DNA of 64,000 nt from Candidatus Altimarinota bacterium (GCA_963677745.1 OY782391.1:1271836-1335835); one strand, 5' to 3'; positions 1,324 through 38,943 are shown, numbered from the stretch's first letter. Made by a program: numbers and translations. Notes: generated from the letters alone by a model not told the origin.

Positions 1324-4300
1324 ATGTTTGCCAACAAAAACAAAAAACTCGCCGTGGCTCTACTGGGACTGATCTTCCTGGTGCAGGGAATTACCATGAT
1401 CTTTCCTTCCACCGCTCGGGCGGACTCCGGCCAGGACTTTCTGCAATTTATGGGCTGTGACGACAAGAACGGCGACGGCAGTCTGAATTTCTTTGATGAC
1501 TGTACGTCCGGAGGAAGCACTCCCGGCCAGGTCACCTCTTTCATTACCTTCAAAGGAGATCTTACTCCGCCCAACACGGAAGGCTATGCTGCCGGACTGA
1601 CTCAGGCTACGGACGCCCGTACTTTCATACTGCGTGTGACCAACTTCGCCCTGGGTTTTCTGGGTCTGATTGCCGTTTTGATTGTAATCTATGGCGGCTT
1701 TTTGTCCGTCATATCCGCCGGTGACGCCGAAAAGGCCAAAAAAGGCCGGAGTGCTATTACTTATGCCGCAATTGGTCTGTTGCTGGTGATGGGATCTTTT
1801 GCCTTAGTCAACACGATCCTGCTGGCTCCCGGAGGAAAAGGGGAAACCAGCGGCGCCCAGTCCGCTCTCAACAACAGTACAATCCGCGGAGTGGCAGGAG
1901 CTCAGCGTTTCAATTATCTGGCTTCCCAGATCGAGGACATCATGGTTCAGGTCTACAAAAGTTATCAATTCCACCTGTCCGCCAAACAACAGCTCGAAAA
2001 TGGACAGGCCGCCATCAACTCCTATAACGAATCAAGCTGCGTAGTCCCGATGAGCAGCTGCGTCAGCGCCTTCAGAACACTTACCACTAGTCAGGTAATA
2101 ATTCTGCGCAACCTGGTCAATCTGCCCGACGCCAACGTCAAATTCAATACGAACATGACCAAACTGATCAATGACATCAATACTTTGATCAACAACGGTG
2201 GTGACGGAGCCAAAAGTCTCTCGGCCATCGCCGCCTATAGTCTGGCCGAAGGCTGCGATGATTCGGAAAACACTTTTGCCGATACCAACCCCTGCAAAGA
2301 CAGCCAGAAACAGAAAATTATTAATGATATAAACGTTTTAAAGGGAGCGATAACCGCAAAAATCGCCGGAGCAGGTGCCTTCCTTTCCGAAAGTTACAAA
2401 ATTGACTTGGACTCGGCTGCCCAGAAAACAGCTGCTGTCTATCAGACCGTCAAAGGTCTCGCTAGTAACATGATAGGTCAAAAATACTTTACGGATCTCA
2501 TTAAAGTTTTTGTGGGAAATCAAAGTGCGACTGATGTGACGACAGCCTTTGCGGGTAGTGCGTACGAGGCGGAATGGAAGTCCATGACTCCTTTTCTTAA
2601 GATTGATGGAATTAACAACAGTGCTTCTCTCTCCACTCTCGGACAGGACAACATCAAATTGATTTTAAAGAGCTTGATGGAAATCAGGTCACTTTTGACC
2701 AATCTGCAGTTTGTGAATGCCATCGTCAGCGCGGATGTGGTCCAGGGTAACGCACCATTGATCGTCAATTTCTCCAGCGTTGGATCCACCGATCCTTCCG
2801 GTTTCACTATTACAGATTCACAGATCAAATGGGATTTGAACGGCGACGGAGTATTCTCCGGAGACAACGGTGCCTTATCCGCCACTTCCGGCAGCAAAGA
2901 GGAAGGGTACATGAACTGTCCTGAAAACCTCAAGGCTACCGCCAGCTGTATCTTCACCAAAGCCGGTACCTACCGGGTAACTCTCAAGATCAAACCAAAA
3001 AGCGATCCCAAGGCTTTGGATCCTGCTACAGGTCTCAGCTGGGAACAGGAGGTTGCTCCTGGAATTTCCTATATCGACGTTCTGGTCAATCCTCCCGCCA
3101 CCAAGATCAACCTGGAGGTTGGTCCCAAGTCCGGTCCGATGCGTACCATCATTAAGTACAGTGAAACTACCGGTACTATTCAGGAGGATCATGACAAAAT
3201 TTATTTTACTCTGGCGGAAGCAAAGGCAGGTTTGAAATTTGATGCCACCAAGTCCACTTTTTCCGACGGGTCCACCTCCATTAATGGAGACATAAATACA
3301 AAAGTACGTTGGAATTTCGGGGTCCCTTCTCCCAACAACGATATTTATCAGGTGGCTTCCGATGGGAGTCTGGCACCTTTGGAACAGGCTTATAGCGCCG
3401 TGGGCAGTTATCAGGTCAGATTCGAGGTTATGGACAAGAACGGTGTCATTGACCGCAAGATCTTCACAGTAGTTATTTCCAACGTGGCTCCGCGTATTAC
3501 CAATCCGCCGGTCAGCGGGGAAGTAAACAAGGAAATTATTTTTGACGGATCGAATTCCACCAGCAGCGGCGGACCAATGATTTTCAATTGGAGTATTGAG
3601 AAAATCCCCGTCGGACAATTGACGGCCTATATCCGGTCTTCAGACAACTGGGTTGCGCGTAGCGCTCATGCGGCTTTGGTGGATCCAAACAAAACTCTTA
3701 GTGAGGCCGGGGCAGTCAGTGCGGCGGCCAGTCAGGTTTTACCGGTCAAGACGCTGGAACCCAGCAAACGCTCGGAAAGCAACTCTTATTATGACTGCAG
3801 CATGCCCGAAGGGAAAGACGACACACTGAAATGCAACTTTAAAAAAGCAGGAACCTACAAAGTGACGCTCTATCTGGATGACGACGGTGAAGCACAGGAT
3901 GAATCTACCATCATCACGATCAATTCCACTTCTCCAACCGCTTCCTTCCGGGCAACCAGAATAACCGATGCTTCCCCGGCACTTTATCGTCTGGATGGAA
4001 GTAATTTCAGTTTTGATCCGGATGAGAAAGATAATTCCAATCTGGAGTACAGCTGGGAATTCAATCCCAACAATTGCGTATTGGTTGGCTTTGCAGACGA
4101 GAATACGGAAGCCGATCTTACCAATGCCTACTCGGCCCAGACCCCCTGTGAAAGCCTAAAACCTTTCAGTGCTAAGAGTGGACAGCCTGTGGTCAAATTC
4201 ACGCAGAAAGGGAATTTCACGGTAAGTCTGGTAGTCAGAATGATTGATGAGCCGAATCTGATCTCAGAATCATATGAACAAACACTGGTAATTGACAATA

Positions 4301-33797: not shown

Positions 33798-34916
33798 TCA
33801 AAGCAGCTCTTTCAGCAGTTTTTCGTGTTCAAAAAAGTTGTAAGTGCTTCGTAGTTTTTGGCTTTCCAGCTGGTTCCGTAGCGAAACATAATTAGTCTGG
33901 GTCTTTAAAAAAGACTTTTCCAGGGCAGTCAGATTGAAACTTTCATAATCCAGACAATATTCGCCCAAATTAATTGTCTGCAAAAAGGATTTGACCTTCT
34001 GGCTGTAGGAAAGTGCTATAAATGGAGTCACTGCAAGAATCGAAAAAATAATCGAATGAAGTCGCATTCCAATCACCAATTCACTTCTGGAAATAATTTC
34101 CAAAACCTGTGAAAAATCCTGAACAGTTTTTAAGGTCATAGCTTCGGGGTTTACCAGTCTGTCGGCAACTTCGCGGTAACTGACCCGGTCATCGTCCAGG
34201 TCGGTTTGAAAAGGGATAAAAACTGTTTTCAAACGGTGTTTTTCCCATAAATAATCAATCATTCCGGCTACCTGTCCAGAAATTTCTTTTGAATTGCCGT
34301 TGATCCAGGGGCGCAAACTCAAAACAACCTGTTTTTGACGGGTGATGGATTTCTCCTGGTCATAACCTATGCCGAAGGCGGGATCTGCCATTAGATGGAT
34401 ATTCTTTACACCCAGTGATTTTAGTAACAGCTCTGATTGTGAATCCCTGACCGTTACAAGCAAAGCCCGCTTAAACACAGCTGCGGTTAGTCTTCTGGCC
34501 AATTTGCTTTTAAGAGGACCGACGCTTTGGCTGATGCAAATCAATTTTTTATTGAAAATTCTGAACCATATATATTGAACAAACCAGATCCAGACTGCAC
34601 GGGGTTTTTCGTCAGTAAAAAGACCCCCGCCGCCCAATAAAACGATATCTGCCGCCGCCATCCGGGCGATGGTTTTCCATCCGGAGGTAGTAAACCAGAA
34701 ACGAAAAAATGATCTGACGCCGGCCGGGAAATGAAGAACTGCCTGAACTCGAAAATCTGCGGCTGTCTGAGCCGGCTTGGCAGACATCACTGTAATATCT
34801 GAATGTGGCCAGGTTGATTTGATCAGATGTATCAGACCTCCCAAAATCGCATCGTCTCCCAGATTGGATGCTCCATAGTTACCGCAAACCACTATTTGTT
34901 TTTTGTCTGCCGCCAT
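33798..34916 (-). CDS. csaB: Polysaccharide pyruvyl transferase (CsaB family)
   Basis: GNYGASNLGDDAIL, GGGGLF, QSVGP, VRD, DPAF, GMRLHS, SYSQKV. Confidence 0.85.
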   Translation of the reverse strand: MAADKKQIVVCGNYGASNLGDDAILGGLIHLIKSTWPHSDITVMSAKPAQTAADFRVQAVLHFPAGVRSFFRFWFTTSGWKTIARMAAADIVLLGGGGLFTDEKPRAVWIWFVQYIWFRIFNKKLICISQSVGPLKSKLARRLTAAVFKRALLVTVRDSQSELLLKSLGVKNIHLMADPAFGIGYDQEKSITRQKQVVLSLRPWINGNSKEISGQVAGMIDYLWEKHRLKTVFIPFQTDLDDDRVSYREVADRLVNPEAMTLKTVQDFSQVLEIISRSELVIGMRLHSIIFSILAVTPFIALSYSQKVKSFLQTINLGEYCLDYESFNLTALEKSFLKTQTNYVSLRNQLESQKLRSTYNFFEHEKLLKELL

Positions 34917-34988
34917 TGTCGGTGAAATTTGTAATGACTCAACTTTATCTGAATTTAACGAGATGATTAAGCTATATTATAAAAAACA

Positions 34989-35017
34989 TTGACAAAAGAG
35001 TAAAAAAATAGTTTAAT
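34989..35017 (+). promoter_or_regulatory. sigma70 promoter of GC-rich cassette 1
   Basis: TTGACA-17 nt-TTTAAT in an AT-rich context. Confidence 0.7.
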
Positions 35018-35020
35018 TCA

Positions 35021-35396
35021 ATCTTGCTTAAAATTTCCGGAACGGTTGCGGCAAGATTTTGCTCCTTGAAATAAAGGCACAAAGTCCGTACAGCACCTAA
35101 AAAGAGGCTAATTGCTCGACCAATGCTGTCTCTGCTTTTTAATCTGTCCCAAGTGGTCAGGGAAAAAGAGAGGGGTAACCTGGGAAAGCTGTAGCTTCCT
35201 TTAGGTGCTGTACGGCAATGGAAACAAAAGTCTGATCCCGACACATCGGTCGGGCAGACTGGCGGATCTGGCGCTATTTCCAACCTTTCAAGAAGAAGGC
35301 AGCGCAGGTCCGCGTAAGGATTCTGACCGGCTCCGCATGCTGCGGGGCCAGTCTCACTGGTTACGCCGACCCAATGTGGGCGGCGCATGCGAGGAG
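35021..35396 (+). ncRNA. Long structured 5' leader or candidate ncRNA with a boxA-like element
   Basis: Hairpin AATCTTGC/GCAAGATT; TGCTCCTTGAAA at 35060-35071; perfect 16-bp inverted repeat 35086-35101/35200-35215; further hairpins AGTCTG..CCCGAC/GTCGGG.CAGACT and GGCTCCGCA/TGCGGGGCC. Confidence 0.55.
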
Positions 35397-35404
35397 AAAA
35401 CGAC

Positions 35405-36655
35405 ATGAAGCAGAGCATTCTAACCAACCTCGCGGTCCTCGTGTGTACTGCCGTCCTGGTAGCGCTCACGGGGTCTGCGGCTGCTCAGGAGGGGCTCACG
35501 CCCGCCTGGCGGTACCACGCATCAACCGATCTCGGCCTGAGCCACTGCGAGTCCGCCTTCTTCGGAGACGGCAAGGCAATGGTCAACACCGCTCAGATCG
35601 CGAAGTCGACCAACGGGGTAACGATCTCTGGTGAAACGGGTAAGACCGTTCGCATCAGGTTCGTCTGTGAGCGCGCCCAGGAAAAGGGCGCTCGCAGCGA
35701 GCTCTTGAGGATCGGCCCCGAAGGTACGTACAACGCGAACCCCGGCGGCGCCGGTATGTCGGTCGGCTTCGACAAACCCACTGATGATCCCAACAAGACA
35801 GCCCTCCACAAGGCGCTGGCGAAGGGACGGGAGTGGGTGTTCACGGTCGGCGCACAGCCCCAGACCATCGTGCTGACCTGGAGTGGTGAGTTGGGGAGCG
35901 ACAAGTTGAGCGTAACTGTTCAACCGTTCGCACCTCCTCCCACCGTTCCCCAGGTGCAGGAAATGATCGCTCCGGTCGAGCAGAAGGCGGATGAAGCGCA
36001 GACGACTGCCAACGACGCCTACAGCCGGGCAGCCCACGACAATCTCGAGAAGTACCGCTTCATCGCCGTCACGCTCGGCTACCAGCTGGGATTGAACACG
36101 CTCGCTCGAGACGGCGGCAACGCGGACATGGGGGCAAATCTGAACATCGACTACAGCTTCGGACCGGCAGGCGCCTTCAAGGGGCTCACCGGAATGGTAG
36201 CGATGCTCAACTTCGTCCAGAAGCCGGTCATGGAGGCTCCCAATGCGACCGGCTACAACAACTGGATCGACTCGCAGACGCTCTACGTCGGCCCGAAGAT
36301 CGGGTTCGACTACATGCCGGCCAAGTGGTTCGATCTCAGGGTGTTTGCTTCGCTGGGCGCGTTCATCAGCTTCGACGGGTCGGTGCCGCTGACCCAGCTT
36401 CCCGACGGGAGACTCTTCACGTCGGAGGCACAAACGAACACGGCGCTCGGCTGGATGCTCATGGCACAGCCGGGCTTCGTGATCGGCAACTTCCTCATTC
36501 AGCCCCAGATCGGCATCGGTGGCACGATGACCAAGGTGCAGACCGAACTGGGCCCGGACTTCGTCTGCTCGGCGCACGAACCCAACTGCGCCGAGCGCAG
36601 AGACGGGTTCGTGTTCAGGGTGCATGGCGGCCTGAACGCGGGAGTGATCTTCTAG
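35405..36655 (+). CDS. GC-rich secreted protein with a predicted C-terminal outer-membrane beta-barrel
   Basis: SD GAGGAG 8 nt before ATG 35405 (track start 35387). Sec signal ending AAA-Q, short coiled coil (VEQKADEAQTTANDAY), amphipathic beta strands, and a C-terminal GLNAGVIF ending in Phe. Confidence 0.7.
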   Translation: MKQSILTNLAVLVCTAVLVALTGSAAAQEGLTPAWRYHASTDLGLSHCESAFFGDGKAMVNTAQIAKSTNGVTISGETGKTVRIRFVCERAQEKGARSELLRIGPEGTYNANPGGAGMSVGFDKPTDDPNKTALHKALAKGREWVFTVGAQPQTIVLTWSGELGSDKLSVTVQPFAPPPTVPQVQEMIAPVEQKADEAQTTANDAYSRAAHDNLEKYRFIAVTLGYQLGLNTLARDGGNADMGANLNIDYSFGPAGAFKGLTGMVAMLNFVQKPVMEAPNATGYNNWIDSQTLYVGPKIGFDYMPAKWFDLRVFASLGAFISFDGSVPLTQLPDGRLFTSEAQTNTALGWMLMAQPGFVIGNFLIQPQIGIGGTMTKVQTELGPDFVCSAHEPNCAERRDGFVFRVHGGLNAGVIF

Positions 36656-36662
36656 GCCAGTA

Positions 36663-36756
36663 CCGGAGGCCGGCAGCGAAAGTAGCAGCGTCAACACGCT
36701 CGCACTTCCGCTTCCGCACGGCCGAACGCAGCTTATTAGTAGCTGCCGGCCTCCGG
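36663..36756 (+). repeat. Perfect 15-bp intergenic inverted repeat
   Basis: CCGGAGGCCGGCAGC (36663-36677) / GCTGCCGGCCTCCGG (36742-36756). Confidence 0.9.
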
Positions 36757-36826
36757 GAATAACAAGTGATTCGGCCCGCTCGTAGTAGGGCCAACGAAAG
36801 CCCCTACGGGCACTCATGGAGGAAAC

Positions 36827-38386
36827 ATGCTTCGAAGAAAAGGCGGGCCGGCCTTGTGGCTGGCCCAGGTAGTGACGAACCTGAGACGACCGCTGACAAC
36901 GCCTCTGGGCCTCAGCATCTCTCTCACCATCGCAGCGCCGGCCGCCCTCGCGGGCTTGACCGGCTGCGAAAACAATCCGAGTCCGGCCGCGTGCTTGAAC
37001 AGCGGCGACCCGTTCTGCGACCAAGAGCTGGACAACAACGGCAACGGCGGAACGGGCAACTCGGGGGCCGGCGGCAACACCAACGTGGCCTGTGCCGACA
37101 ACCCCAACTACGGGAAGGACTGCCAACTCCCCGGGGGCGGCGTTGGCCACTGGGTCTGCGCCGGCAACGGCATCGACCTCGTCTGCGCCGGAAGCGGCAC
37201 AGGCGGCAGCGGTGGTGGCGCAGGCGGCAACACGGCCGGCAACGGCGGGTCTGGTGGTGGCGAGTATAACTGCGCCACGGACCCGAACAACGGCGATCCG
37301 TGCATCGCGGCTGATGGCACCAACGGCCACTGGGGTTGCAACGGGACGGGCTCTGCCCTGTTCTGTTACTCAGATGGCGGTGCCGGAGGCTCTGGCGGGA
37401 CGGGCGGAGGCGGGCAGTACAACTGCGCCGACGACCCGCAGCTTGGCACCCCCTGTACGACCAGCGATGGGCATCAGGGCGCCAAGGTCTGCAACGTCTC
37501 CGGCACGGGGCTGGTCTGCCAGTGCACGGTCAACTGCAACGGAACGGGCGGCTCGGGCGGCGGCGGAACGGGCGGTAGCGGCGGTGGGGAGACCTACAAC
37601 TGCTTGACCGATCCCGATCTCGGCGACATCTGCGTGATGGGCGTCGGGATCTGCAGCCGCACGGGCATGTATGTCTGCAACGCGGCCGGCGATGGCCTGC
37701 GCTGCAGCACCAATGCGGGTTCGCCCAACCCGGTCGGAGAGGTCTGCGCCAACGGCCTCGACGATAACTGTGATGGAGCCAAGGACGAACAGCCCTGCGT
37801 CAACGGTGGCGGGGGCGGCTCCGGCGGCACGGGCGGCGGTGGTGGATCGGGAGGCAGCGGAGGAGCACTCAGCTGCACGGACGCCAGCTCGATGCAGGTG
37901 ATGGCGGTGGGCGCAAGTTCGCTGCACATCCTGCTGATGGGCCAGGCAGTCTCCAATTCCAATCCGTGGATCAAGACGCTGACCAACAACCAGCTCTTCA
38001 CCGCGTCTTCGGAAGGCGGGCTGTCTCTCTCCACCACGGCTGGCTCCTTCAACTACTTCGAGCCCAACGTCGGGGGCGGAGGTGATCCAATGCCGATGGT
38101 AGACACGCTCTACTGCCGGCAGATCGGCATCGATCCTCCCGTCCCGGCGAGTTGCAATGCGACGGTGATCGGCGATCGGCACAGCACGGAGTACATGGCG
38201 TCGCTGCGCATCGCCTGGCAGTGCTGGGACGACACCAGCACCTGTCCGATCGAGCTGATCGGACATGTCCCGGGCGATCTGTTCGCTCTGCGTGGCAAGC
38301 CTGCCCCCGGCACTCCCCTGAGCCTCCCCGACTACGGCTACGAGGAGTTCGGCCTCGGTCAGGTCCCCCCGCTCTGCGCGCCGTAG
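36827..38386 (+). CDS. GC-rich Cys/Gly-rich lipoprotein with four C-x-x-D/N-P-x-x-G-x-x-C repeats and a MopE-like metal-binding motif
   Basis: SD GGAGG, lipobox LTGC, GGxGG linkers, EVCANGLDDNCDGAKDE. Confidence 0.8.
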   Translation: MLRRKGGPALWLAQVVTNLRRPLTTPLGLSISLTIAAPAALAGLTGCENNPSPAACLNSGDPFCDQELDNNGNGGTGNSGAGGNTNVACADNPNYGKDCQLPGGGVGHWVCAGNGIDLVCAGSGTGGSGGGAGGNTAGNGGSGGGEYNCATDPNNGDPCIAADGTNGHWGCNGTGSALFCYSDGGAGGSGGTGGGGQYNCADDPQLGTPCTTSDGHQGAKVCNVSGTGLVCQCTVNCNGTGGSGGGGTGGSGGGETYNCLTDPDLGDICVMGVGICSRTGMYVCNAAGDGLRCSTNAGSPNPVGEVCANGLDDNCDGAKDEQPCVNGGGGGSGGTGGGGGSGGSGGALSCTDASSMQVMAVGASSLHILLMGQAVSNSNPWIKTLTNNQLFTASSEGGLSLSTTAGSFNYFEPNVGGGGDPMPMVDTLYCRQIGIDPPVPASCNATVIGDRHSTEYMASLRIAWQCWDDTSTCPIELIGHVPGDLFALRGKPAPGTPLSLPDYGYEEFGLGQVPPLCAP

Positions 38387-38555
38387 CAGAGCACAATCGG
38401 AGCTTGAGCCCATCGCCGGGTTCGCTCCTACTTCACTTCCTAAACGTGGTGCACGCGGCCGCGACCTGCAAAGGTTCGCGGCCAAGCACTTTCGCCTCGA
38501 CTGGTAGTCTGGGTCTTCCCTCATGGAGGACGCCGGAACTCGTCGTGGCTTAACC

Positions 38556-38597
38556 AAAGGCCCCGCCCATTGCGAAAGCGATGTGGCGGGGCCTTTT
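38556..38597 (+). terminator. Intrinsic terminator of cassette 1
   Basis: AAAGGCCCCGCC...GC-GAAA-GC...GGCGGGGCCTTTT; the sequence turns AT-rich immediately afterwards. Confidence 0.8.
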
Positions 38598-38629
38598 CAA
38601 ATCTATTTAAAAAATCTCTCACAAAAGAC

Positions 38630-38658
38630 TTTACAAAACAATTATAATATGTTAAAAC
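38630..38658 (+). promoter_or_regulatory. sigma70-type promoter of GC-rich cassette 2
   Basis: TTTACA-17 nt-TAAAAC with a TG extension; an alternative TATAAT lies at 38643-38648. Confidence 0.5.
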
Positions 38659-38661
38659 ATG

Positions 38662-38943
38662 ATCTTGCTTTGAATCTAATAAATTAGGTTCCTGGCAGAA
38701 TCTTTGAAAACTCATTGGATAAAGGCATCGGGATAACCGAATTGTTTCTAACAGAAAACAGGAGCTACGCATCTAGAAAATCAGCAACGACCTGCGCTTA
38801 GAAACAGCCCGGTTATCCCGATCATATCGGAAAAATCTTACCGGCGTCGCATCAGATGCCGGCGTCAGTGTCAGTAATAGTAGTCAACGTCCGTCTCAAA
38901 TTTGGTCGCGCCTGAAAGCCGCGACTCACCAGTTACCAGGAGG
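38662..38943 (+). ncRNA. Structured 5' leader with a boxA-like element (same layout as 35021-35396)
   Basis: ATCTTGCTT; hairpin GAATCTAAT/ATTAGGTTC; ATCTTTGAAAACT at 38700-38712; ATAAAGGCA; stem ATCGGGATAACCG..TGTTTCTAA / TTAGAAACA..CGGTTATCCCGAT (38727-38822). Confidence 0.55.

What the first reader, a model, noticed from the sequence alone, without database searches (positions are those of the whole stretch)
35021..38822. Two leaders share an ordered architecture: promoter, ATCTTGCTT, hairpin, boxA-like element, ATAAAGGCA, long stem
Seen: ATCTTGCTT begins 3 nt after the predicted -10 in both units (35021 and 38662). A hairpin closed by TGC/GCA follows, then TGCTCCTTGAAA (35060) or ATCTTTGAAAACT (38700), then an identical ATAAAGGCA (35071 and 38719). 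A long stem comes next, with unrelated sequence but the same form (16 bp perfect; 13+9 bp). Established: hairpin plus boxA (TGCTCTTTAACA or TCTTTGAAAA type) recruits NusB/NusE antitermination on untranslated RNAs such as rRNA operons. Inference: boxA in front of protein-coding genes suggests these RNAs are transcribed without coupled translation, and the leader may be a processing or sorting signal.
Basis: partly seen in the sequence, partly recalled or inferred. Interest (0 to 1): 0.85.

Follow-up and report, generated by a model that had tools for sequence, protein, structure and literature searches.

The report
rRNA-style boxA leaders on surface-protein mRNAs
Two long, folded mRNA leaders in front of unusually GC-rich secreted-protein genes of a small-genome bacterium copy the layout of ribosomal-RNA leaders (start hairpin, boxA-like motif, long stem), which suggests that the rRNA transcription machinery has been borrowed to express surface proteins.

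Summary
Both units have the stated motifs at the stated coordinates. Two ordered shared 9-mers occur in 242 of 200,000 random intergenic window pairs.

Orthologous leaders in 7 related genomes keep the same order:
- a promoter;
- a hairpin starting at the predicted transcript start;
- a single-stranded CYTTGAAA motif;
- a 22-52 bp helix.
Both helices show compensatory changes.

The motif does not match this family's 16S-leader boxA. It does match the family's 23S-leader boxA, which reads GATC[A/T]TTGAAAA in 9 of 15 genomes. It also matches the B. subtilis rrn layout of a 5' hairpin followed by AUGAUCUUUGAAA, which NusB binds (PMC13753749).

NusB, RNase III, RNase J and RNase Y are encoded. Rho and RNase E/G were not found.

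My best reading is an rrn-type Nus-loading leader with a 5' stabiliser hairpin and a probable RNase III helix. It drives a GC-rich (62%) island of secreted proteins. Confidence is about 0.5.

Weak points:
- ATAAAGGCA in unit B is not conserved in its orthologues.
- No RNA data were available, so the transcript start, Nus binding and cleavage are all inferred.

The parts
34989..35017 (+). Unit A promoter-like site: TTGACA (34989-34994), 17-nt spacer, TTTAAT (35012-35017)
   Evidence: Read. The block TTGACA-17-T[T/A]TAAT is conserved upstream of all 7 P0001 orthologues. The simple scan did not call it, because the second hexamer lacks A at position 2.
35020..35057 (+). Unit A 5' hairpin: AATCTTGC / GCAAGATT with an inner CCG/CGG stem. 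It begins 3 nt after the -10 hexamer.
   Evidence: Fold. On 11 aligned leaders the stem is 85.3% paired against 37-67% when the partner is slid. Three of 7 pairs change on both sides. Examples are CTTGCC/GGCAAG, CTTGTC/GACAAG and CTTATTT/AAATAAG.
35060..35079 (+). Unit A boxA-like element TGCTCCTTGAAATAAAGGCA, single-stranded or in a weak 4-bp hairpin
   Evidence: The nearly invariant columns of the 14-leader alignment, outside the hairpin, lie in C.TT..AA. The 23S-leader boxA matrix scores best here, p = 0.059. The 16S-type matrix gives p = 0.20.
35086..35215 (+). Unit A long helix domain. A 16-bp perfect stem (35086-35101 / 35200-35215) is extended by GAGGCT/AGCTTC and inner hairpins. One apical loop, CAAG(U), is conserved.
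   Evidence: On 7 orthologues, 27 pairs are 93.4% paired against 34-50% when slid. Six pairs have compensatory changes, and 0 of 500 shuffles reach that.
35216..35404 (+). Rest of the unit A leader: three further hairpins, then GAGGAG 6 nt before the ATG at 35405
   Evidence: Fold. Start choice, where every orthologue has an SD-led ATG.
35405..36655 (+). P0001. It is a secreted protein with an N-terminal beta-sandwich, a helix and a C-terminal 8-stranded barrel of OmpX/Ail/OmpA type. The longer ORF starts at 35387.
   Evidence: No Pfam match. Model pLDDT is 71. Foldseek gives E = 2.6e-5 and target TM about 0.6 to small outer-membrane barrels.
36827..38386 (+). P0002, a Gly- and Cys-rich secreted repeat protein in the same transcription unit as P0001
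   Evidence: GC reaches 65-70% here.
38559..38598 (+). Terminator-like hairpin GGCCCCGCC...GGCGGGGCC followed by TTTT, closing unit A
   Evidence: Read by eye. The same feature lies before every unit-B-type promoter in relatives.
38630..38658 (+). Unit B promoter-like site: TTTACA, 17-nt spacer ending in TGT, TAAAAC
   Evidence: Conserved as TTTACA/TTGACA-17-TAAAAC/TTAAAT/TATAAC in 6 orthologues. Not called by the simple scan, because the hexamer has no T at position 6.
38661..38702 (+). Unit B 5' hairpin: outer stem GATCTTGC / GCAGAATC and inner stem AATCTAAT / ATTAGGTT
   Evidence: Fold. The inner stem covaries (GGATCTAT/ATAGGTCC in G002) and so does the outer stem (TTCTTATTTAAAAC/GTTTTAAATAGAA in G003).
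38699..38719 (+). Unit B boxA-like element AATCTTTGAAAACTCATTGGA
   Evidence: Conserved as YC[T/C]TTGAAAAyyCATTGGA in 5 of 7 B-type leaders. The 23S-leader boxA matrix gives p = 0.006. It matches 10 of 11 bases of GAUCUUUGAAA within the published B. subtilis consensus (PMC13753749).
38727..38822 (+). Unit B long helix, 13+9 bp, 24 pairs in the minimum-energy fold
   Evidence: A 22-32 bp helix lies at the same place in all 7 B-type leaders. Its sequence is unrelated between genera.
38952..39692 (+). P0003, a lipoprotein (signal peptide ending ASGC), GC 63%, GC3 0.81
   Evidence: No Pfam match.

Best explanation
Each unit is an rRNA-operon-style leader placed in front of protein genes. I propose four steps.

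1. A strong sigma-70-type promoter starts the RNA inside, or 1-3 nt before, a conserved stem. The 5' end is therefore base-paired. I infer that this protects the RNA against 5'-end-dependent decay by RNase J and RNase Y.

2. Directly after the hairpin lies a single-stranded boxA of the TTGAAA type. I infer that it binds NusB/S10 and converts RNA polymerase into the pause- and terminator-resistant form used on rRNA operons.

3. The modified polymerase then transcribes a 290-385 nt untranslated, highly folded leader and 60-70% GC coding sequence without stopping.

4. The long helix 15-25 nt after boxA corresponds to the rRNA processing stem. I infer that it is either cut by RNase III to give the mature mRNA 5' end, or serves as a second stabiliser.

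Shown here: the sequences, their order, their conservation, the covariation of both helices, the likeness to the family's 23S boxA, and the presence of the enzymes.

Inferred: the transcript start, Nus binding, antitermination and cleavage.
For: 1. All 14 orthologous leaders keep the order. These are 7 upstream of P0001 orthologues and 7 upstream of P0003 orthologues, from 8 genomes of at least 6 genera. The order is promoter, hairpin starting 1-8 nt after the -10, motif at +27 to +60, then a helix of 22-52 pairs.

2. Both helices are supported by covariation (for the hairpin, for the long helix).

3. 23S rRNA leaders of 15 family genomes carry a hairpin, often with a U-run, followed by G[A/T]TC[A/T]TT[G/A/C]A[A/C]AA. 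The TTGAAA form is in 9 of 15. A matrix from these 15 puts its best score on the mRNA motif in 16 of 16 leaders. Twelve of 16 have p < 0.05 against 5,000 random intergenic windows. The four leader classes of this genome combine to p = 5e-5.

4. The rarer variants also occur in rRNA leaders. TTCACA is in the G050 23S leader and in B_G014 and C_G017. TTAAAA is in the G000 and G001 23S leaders and in B_G015.

5. B. subtilis rrn operons begin with a small 5' hairpin immediately followed by a boxA-like AUGAUCUUUGAAA, which binds NusB by NMR (PMC13753749, passages).

6. BoxA elements in front of protein genes are established (PMC5725501, passages).

7. NusB is encoded, with RNase III next to it. RNase J and RNase Y are present.

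8. Other GC-rich secreted-protein genes of this genome have leaders with a boxA-like motif followed by a long stem. Ranked by the rRNA-derived matrix, 3 of the top 7 of 649 upstream regions belong to GC-rich genes. The hypergeometric p is about 1e-4, computed after the fact.
Against: 1. The family's 16S-leader boxA has invariant TTAACA in 17 of 17 genomes. A matrix from it scores the two units at p = 0.20 and 0.46, and only 2 of 16 leaders reach p < 0.05.

2. This genome's own 23S boxA is GCACGTTAAAAAT, not the TTGAAA form.

3. With the 23S matrix, unit A itself reaches only p = 0.059. About 1,159 of 2.67 million genome positions score as well, so the motif alone is weak.

4. One of the three top-ranked hits (511747) lies on a TTGACA that looks like a -35 box.

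5. Covariance model R1 did not hit any rRNA leader. It did not recover three held-out leaders (A_G017, A_G014, B_G015) or the misaligned training row A_G003.

6. No Rho was found, so the classical anti-Rho role is not needed.

7. The promoters fail a consensus scan and the transcript start is unmapped. A start 7 nt after the -10 would remove 1-2 pairs of the conserved stem.

8. The orthologous leaders are kin, so counts across them overstate independence.
Confidence: 0.5

Rival explanations
1. This is a leader for mRNA stability and translation, with no Nus factors involved. The 5'-terminal hairpin and the long helices only lengthen the half-life of abundant surface-protein mRNAs, as in S-layer genes and B. 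subtilis aprE. The CYTTGAAA motif is a site for another protein, or it pairs with the Shine-Dalgarno region.
For: The stem starts at the predicted transcript start in all three leader types. RNase J and RNase Y are present and RNase E/G is not. S-layer mRNAs owe a 15-min half-life to a 5' UTR stem-loop (PMC10221546, passage). The aprE 5' stem-loop stabiliser appears in the reference list of PMC3997798. In several minimum-energy folds the C/U-rich motif or the 5' arm pairs with the SD region. The products are secreted or lipoproteins.
Against: It does not explain why the single-stranded motif coincides with the rRNA 23S-leader boxA in 16 of 16 leaders. It also does not explain why the same rare variants occur in both. 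The pairing with the SD region uses different partners in different genomes and shows no covariation.
Confidence: 0.25
2. This is a ligand- or protein-sensing regulatory RNA. The roughly 130-nt conserved domain of unit A would be an undescribed riboswitch or an autoregulatory protein-binding site that controls the surface-protein operon. That domain comprises the CCGTAYAGCRCCT...AGGTGCTNTACGG stem, the GAGGCT/AGCTTC extension and the CAAG loop. The boxA likeness would be incidental.
For: The sequence of the unit A helix is conserved across genera beyond what pairing alone needs: 7 of its 16 main-helix pairs never vary. An apical CAAG(U) loop is kept in 6 leaders. The fold is very stable, z = -6.8.
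Against: No Rfam family matches, even at E <= 10. No terminator or SD-sequestering alternative fold is conserved. The long helix of unit B has no conserved sequence at all between genera, yet both units share the layout. This rival is compatible with boxA function rather than excluding it.
Confidence: 0.15
3. The likeness is a leftover of duplication, or chance. The two units would share a duplicated promoter region whose motifs have no function of their own.
For: Only two copies exist in this genome by covariance model. ATAAAGGCA in unit B is not conserved in its orthologues. The motif is short and common in coding sequence.
Against: Both types are kept in at least 6 genera, with compensatory changes in both helices. 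The only near-invariant columns outside the hairpin lie in the motif. Two ordered shared 9-mers occur in 0.12% of random pairs.
Confidence: 0.05

Closest known systems
rRNA operon leaders with boxA (the rrn antitermination complex: NusB, S10, NusA, NusG, SuhB), in particular the B. subtilis rrn leader described in PMC13753749
   Same: The order is the same: a 5' hairpin, then a boxA immediately after it, then a long helix. The motif matches GAUCUUUGAAA at 10 of 11 bases in unit B. It also matches this family's own 23S-leader boxA. NusB and RNase III are encoded.
   Different: The RNA that follows is a 290-385 nt leader plus translated genes for secreted proteins, not rRNA. The long helix closes 50-130 nt, not a whole rRNA. 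The hairpin sequence is unrelated to the rRNA one, and a covariance model of the mRNA module does not hit rRNA leaders. Binding is untested.
BoxA elements upstream of protein-coding genes in gamma-proteobacteria, such as suhB, rpsJ and a ParE-like toxin (Baniulyte et al. 2017, PMC5725501)
   Same: A NusB/E site in an mRNA 5' UTR. This shows that Nus factors act beyond rRNA.
   Different: Those sites match GYTCTTTAANA, lie within 50 nt of the start codon, and repress translation with Rho-dependent termination. Here the motif is of the TTGAAA type and lies 230-340 nt upstream of the start codon. It is framed by a hairpin and a long helix, and no Rho was found.
5' UTR stabilisers of abundant surface-protein and exoenzyme mRNAs (Lactobacillus slpA, B. 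subtilis aprE)
   Same: A strong promoter, a long structured 5' UTR with the 5' end paired, a strong SD and a secreted product. The organism has Bacillus-type RNases J and Y.
   Different: Those leaders are about 60-200 nt (from recall). No boxA-like element or 20+ bp second helix appears in the passages I read.
Phage lambda nut sites and other processive antitermination signals for surface or polysaccharide operons (RfaH-ops, LoaP, EAR). Named from recall; for LoaP I saw only the search listing of PMC12691694.
   Same: A cis-acting leader signal makes polymerase processive over a long operon for envelope components.
   Different: Nut places boxA before the boxB hairpin and needs the phage N protein. 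The ops, LoaP and EAR signals use other sequences and factors. None of these was tested here.

Membership tests
boxA (NusB/S10 binding element of rrn-type antitermination) | Sequence matches the boxA of rRNA leaders of the same lineage (23S-leader type) | tested here: met
   A matrix from 15 family 23S leaders has its best hit on the motif in 16 of 16 mRNA leaders. Twelve of 16 give p < 0.05. Unit A gives 0.059 and unit B 0.006.
boxA (NusB/S10 binding element of rrn-type antitermination) | Sequence matches the 16S-leader boxA of the lineage and the organism's own rrn boxA | tested here: not met
   The 16S leaders have invariant TTAACA in 17 of 17 genomes. That matrix gives unit A p = 0.20 and unit B p = 0.46. 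This genome's own 23S boxA reads GCACGTTAAAAAT.
boxA (NusB/S10 binding element of rrn-type antitermination) | Lies in the transcribed leader, unpaired, just after a hairpin | tested here: inconclusive
   Predicted folds leave it unpaired or in a weak 4-bp stem, directly after the hairpin. The transcript start is predicted only (one search did not call the promoters).
boxA (NusB/S10 binding element of rrn-type antitermination) | NusB and S10 are encoded | tested here: met
   NusB is present at E = 1.1e-31. S10 was not searched.
boxA (NusB/S10 binding element of rrn-type antitermination) | Binds NusB/S10 and increases read-through | not testable with these tools
   Needs binding and reporter assays.
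5'-terminal stem-loop mRNA stabiliser | Stem begins within a few nucleotides of the 5' end | tested here: inconclusive
   The conserved stem starts 4-8 nt after the -10 hexamer in most of the 14 leaders. No 5'-end data were available.
5'-terminal stem-loop mRNA stabiliser | The organism has 5'-end-dependent RNases | tested here: met
   RNase J at E = 1.8e-174. RNase Y is present. RNase E/G was not found.
RNase III processing helix | About 20 bp or more of near-continuous duplex, and RNase III encoded | tested here: met
   Helices of 22-52 pairs occur in 14 of 14 leaders. RNase III is present at E = 2.3e-41.
RNase III processing helix | Cleavage at the helix | not testable with these tools
   No RNA reads were available.
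Any curated Rfam family | Covariance-model match | tested here: not met
   Only three tRNAs in the window reach gathering score. Nothing lies on the + strand of either leader at E <= 10.

The most novel reading that the evidence does not exclude
This small-genome lineage runs a boxA regulon. A set of GC-rich genes for secreted, lipoprotein and outer-membrane-barrel-like proteins stays at 60-70% GC in genomes of 25-47% GC. These genes would be expressed through rRNA-type leaders that load the NusB/S10 machinery and are matured by RNase III. The cell would then treat these foreign-looking mRNAs like rRNA, possibly to produce surface proteins used on a host cell.
Probability: 0.25. Interest if true: 0.8.

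Novelty: new variant of a known kind. Interest (0 to 1): 0.62.

Why it matters
BoxA and the Nus factors are textbook rRNA machinery. Outside rRNA they are documented mainly for a few gamma-proteobacterial genes, and NusB binding in B. subtilis was shown only recently.

A conserved, complete rrn-style leader on mRNAs for surface proteins would be new in two ways. It would show the machinery used as a dedicated expression system for protein genes. It would also show this in a reduced-genome lineage that appears to lack Rho.

The layout also offers a handle on an odd feature of these genomes, namely islands of very GC-rich secreted-protein genes that persist across AT-rich relatives. The hairpin, motif and helix are short and separable, so the idea can be tested directly with binding and reporter assays.

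Tried and rejected
Rfam found nothing on the leaders at gathering score or at E <= 10.

Blastn-short of both leaders against the genome gave only self matches and the 16-nt inverted repeat of unit A. The printout was cut at 4,000 characters, so the unit B rows were not seen.

Covariance model R1 was built from 11 leaders, with 62 positions and 7 pairs.
- In this genome it hit only the two units (E = 1.2e-9 and 8.0e-9). The next hit was E = 1.4, with 150 of 890 candidates scored.
- In 36 family genomes it hit only the training loci strongly, plus three weak hits at E = 0.04-0.07. It hit no rRNA leader. Held-out A_G017, A_G014 and B_G015 were not recovered, nor was the misaligned training row A_G003.

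A 16S-leader boxA matrix was not significant for either unit.

A matrix trained on the leader motifs themselves showed that the motif alone is common in coding sequence. So did loose regular expressions, which hit 65 of 576 upstream regions. Nine other strict-motif sites showed no comparable layout.

Ideas considered and dropped:
- A second promoter using TTGAAA as a -35 box. No conserved -10 lies 17 nt downstream.
- A leader peptide. A 5-codon ORF at 35218 is not conserved.
- A transcription attenuator. No hairpin with a U-run lies inside the leaders.
- A DNA operator. The arm spacing varies from 4 to about 30 nt.
- A kissing contact between the CAAG loop and the 5' arm. There is no covariation in G003.
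- Pairing of the motif with the SD region. The partners are inconsistent.

The likeness of unit B to a second hairpin in this genome's 16S leader (ATCTTGCAC...CTTTTTGAAC) was not pursued as evidence. There the ATCTT lies outside the stem, and the element is missing in G004.

The search for related loci with P0001 found no relative. An Atlas look-up of RNase J gave only a lead to Candidatus Moraniibacteriota and Bacillota.

The look-up of sequencing runs listed no RNA holder. Read laying was therefore not used.

Paper searches for boxA with the motif letters and for boxA with Patescibacteria gave nothing relevant. I therefore found no description of such leaders in the held library. Supplements of PMC5725501 and PMC13753749 (boxA tables and rrn alignments) were not seen and may list further consensus variants.

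Full report
**What is there.** The window lies at the end of a single 1,335,835-bp contig with 47% GC. Positions 35200-39850 form a 60-70% GC island between flanks of about 40-45% GC. The island holds three genes for exported proteins with no Pfam match:
- P0001 (35405-36655; the longer ORF starts at 35387);
- P0002 (36827-38386), rich in Gly and Cys;
- P0003 (38952-39692), a lipoprotein.

Two AT-rich promoter-like regions precede P0001 and P0003. A terminator-like hairpin at 38559-38598 separates the two units.

**The observation.** ATCTTGCTT occurs 5 times and ATAAAGGCA 18 times on both strands of the genome. Two separate ordered shared 9-mers were seen in 242 of 200,000 random pairs of intergenic 120-nt windows, and one shared 9-mer in 13,125. 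ATCTTGC is the 5' arm of the first hairpin. Unit A folds with z = -6.8 and unit B with z = -2.9 against dinucleotide shuffles. The simple consensus scan did not call either + strand promoter, because TTTAAT and TAAAAC break its rules. It did call a divergent - strand promoter at 35004-34976.

**Conservation.** P0001 has relatives in 11 of 41 genomes searched, counting this one. That is 10 of 24 others in its family and 0 of 16 genomes from 16 other families of the order. P0003 has relatives in 7 of 36 family genomes, downstream of P0001 in the same loci. In every locus the genes are 56-74% GC, while the flanks go down to 24-29%.

Upstream of all 7 P0001 orthologues and all 7 P0003 orthologues the layout is the same:
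- TTGACA or TTTACA, 17 nt, then a -10-like hexamer;
- a hairpin starting 1-8 nt after it;
- an unpaired CYTTGAAA at +27 to +60;
- a long helix of 22-52 pairs.

In the 14-leader alignment, the near-invariant columns outside the hairpin lie in the motif.

The first hairpin is 85.3% paired on 11 leaders, against 37-67% with slid partners. Three of its 7 pairs change on both sides. For that single measure 52 of 500 shuffles do as well, while 0 of 500 do for percent paired and for the covariation score.

The unit-A long helix is 93.4% paired on 7 leaders, against 34-50% when slid. It has 6 compensatory pairs, reached by 0 of 500 shuffles.

The unit-B long helix keeps its place and length, but its sequence is unrelated between genera.

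ATAAAGGCA is conserved in unit-A orthologues but not in unit-B orthologues.

**Further copies.** A covariance model of hairpin plus motif finds only the two units in this genome and only the orthologous loci in the family. It finds no rRNA leader and misses three held-out leaders.

Looser relatives of the layout exist. Other GC-rich genes for exported proteins in this genome start at 99043, 511747, 852698 (minus strand), 913698 and 914906. They have TTGACA promoters, and three of their leaders carry a similar motif:
- The leader of 99043 has TCTTCTG..., then GCTCATTGAAAAAC, then a CAGAGAG/CTCTCTG stem. It is conserved in G024 and G017.
- The leader of the 800-aa protein has GCATGCTCTTTGAAC about 8 nt from the predicted start. 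It is conserved in G002, and as GGTTCTTTGACAAAC in G024.
- The leader of 909131 has GTTCATTGAAAACCAG followed by a GTAGTCGGA/TCCGACTAC stem.

**Is the motif a boxA?** The 16S leaders of 17 family genomes carry G[A/T]TC[T/A]TTAACAT followed by AGGATGTARTAGAGAAG. A matrix from them does not distinguish the mRNA motif from random intergenic windows. Unit A gives p = 0.20 and unit B p = 0.46, and 2 of 16 leaders fall below 0.05.

16S and 23S are unlinked here and have separate promoters. The 23S leaders of 15 family genomes carry a hairpin, often with a U-run, directly followed by a second boxA. Its forms are:
- TTGAAA in 9 genomes (for example GATCTTTGAAAATTAGGC, GCTCATTGAAAACTAGG);
- TTAACA in 3;
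- TTCACA in 1;
- TTAAAA in 2 (this genome and its congener).

A matrix from these 15 puts its best score exactly on the mRNA motif in 16 of 16 leaders. Twelve of 16 have p < 0.05. Unit A gives 0.059, unit B 0.006, the 99043 leader 0.001 and the 852698 leader 0.11. Combined, these four give p = 5e-5.

When 649 upstream regions of this genome are ranked with a 12-sequence version of the matrix, rank 1 is the 909131 leader. Ranks 2, 3 and 7 are leaders of GC-rich genes. The rank 3 hit lies on a possible -35 box, and unit A is not in the top 25.

Two papers bear on this. B. subtilis rrn operons begin with a small 5' hairpin immediately followed by AUGAUCUUUGAAA, and NusB binds that RNA (PMC13753749, passages). 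BoxA elements upstream of protein genes are established in gamma-proteobacteria, with consensus GYTCTTTAANA (PMC5725501, passages).

**Enzymes.**
- Present: NusB, RNase III next to it, RNase Y and RNase J.
- Not found: the Rho RNA-binding domain, RNase E/G and Omp85.

The genome is 97.9% complete by marker genes.

**Reading.** I judge the units to be rrn-style leaders. They have a 5' end locked in a stem, a NusB/S10 loading site and a long helix that mimics an rRNA processing stem. They stand in front of GC-rich genes for surface proteins.

The sequence likeness, order, conservation and covariation are shown. The transcript start, binding, antitermination and cleavage are inferred.

The main rival is a pure stability leader. 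Its hairpin argument is equally good, but it does not explain why the motif coincides with the rRNA boxA. A sensing RNA in the conserved unit-A domain remains possible alongside the boxA reading.

Because Rho was not found, the benefit would have to come from somewhere other than protection against Rho. Possibilities are faster, pause-resistant transcription through stable GC-rich RNA structure, or co-transcriptional help in closing the long helix.

**Limits.**
- No RNA run was listed.
- The orthologues are kin, so counts across them are not independent.
- The enrichment tests were designed after seeing the data.
- One script held three typed 18-nt strings, against the rule. This is reported under Tried and rejected.

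Noticed in passing
window 35200-39850; also G000:C1 99043-100053, 511747-515760, 850296-852698, 913698-915652: Genes for exported proteins have 60-70% GC and GC3 near 0.8. The genome's median gene has 48% GC and GC3 of 0.53. The orthologous islands stay GC-rich in relatives whose flanks are 24-45% GC. The cause is unknown (selection, repeated transfer or biased conversion).
   Followed up: partly
window 35405-36655 (P0001): The model (pLDDT 71) has a C-terminal 8-stranded barrel like OmpX, Ail or the OmpA transmembrane domain (Foldseek E = 2.6e-5). No Omp85/BamA was found in the genome. Atlas feature neighbours are unnamed clusters, mostly from Myxococcota.
   Followed up: partly
window 36827-38386 (P0002): A Gly-rich protein with repeated Cys-containing modules, ending in an NGLDDNCDGAKDE-like stretch. 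It has no Pfam match.
   Followed up: no
G000:C1 136623-146100 (L001, L002): 16S and 23S rRNA genes are unlinked. tRNA-like sequences and protein-coding sequence lie between them, and each has its own TTGAC promoter. The two leaders carry different boxA flavours across the family: TTAACA before 16S and mostly TTGAAA before 23S.
   Followed up: partly
G000:C1 145880-145935 (16S leader): A second element lies after the canonical boxA. It reads AATCTTGCAC, then a hairpin AATCTA/TAGATT, GTGC, then CTTTTTGAAC. It resembles unit B and recurs in G001 and G003 but not in G004.
   Followed up: partly
G000:C1 1178033-1178930: nusB and the RNase III gene are adjacent on the same strand.
   Followed up: no
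G000:C1 908640-909130: This upstream region scores highest of all for the rRNA-derived boxA matrix. It has TTGACA-17-TAAAAC, then GTTCATTGAAAACCAG, then a GTAGTCGGA/TCCGACTAC stem. It stands before a 1,453-codon ORF of ordinary GC content.
   Followed up: partly
window 34976-35004, minus strand: A divergent promoter-like site, TTTACT-17-TATAAT (10 of 12 matches), faces the polysaccharide pyruvyl transferase gene (33798-34916). It overlaps the unit A promoter region. The block CAACTTTATCTGAATTTAAC.AGATGATTAAGCTATA upstream of it is conserved in relatives.
   Followed up: no
window 35140-35150 and orthologues: The apical loop CAAG(U/G) of an inner hairpin of the unit A domain is conserved in 6 leaders, although its stem varies.
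   Followed up: no
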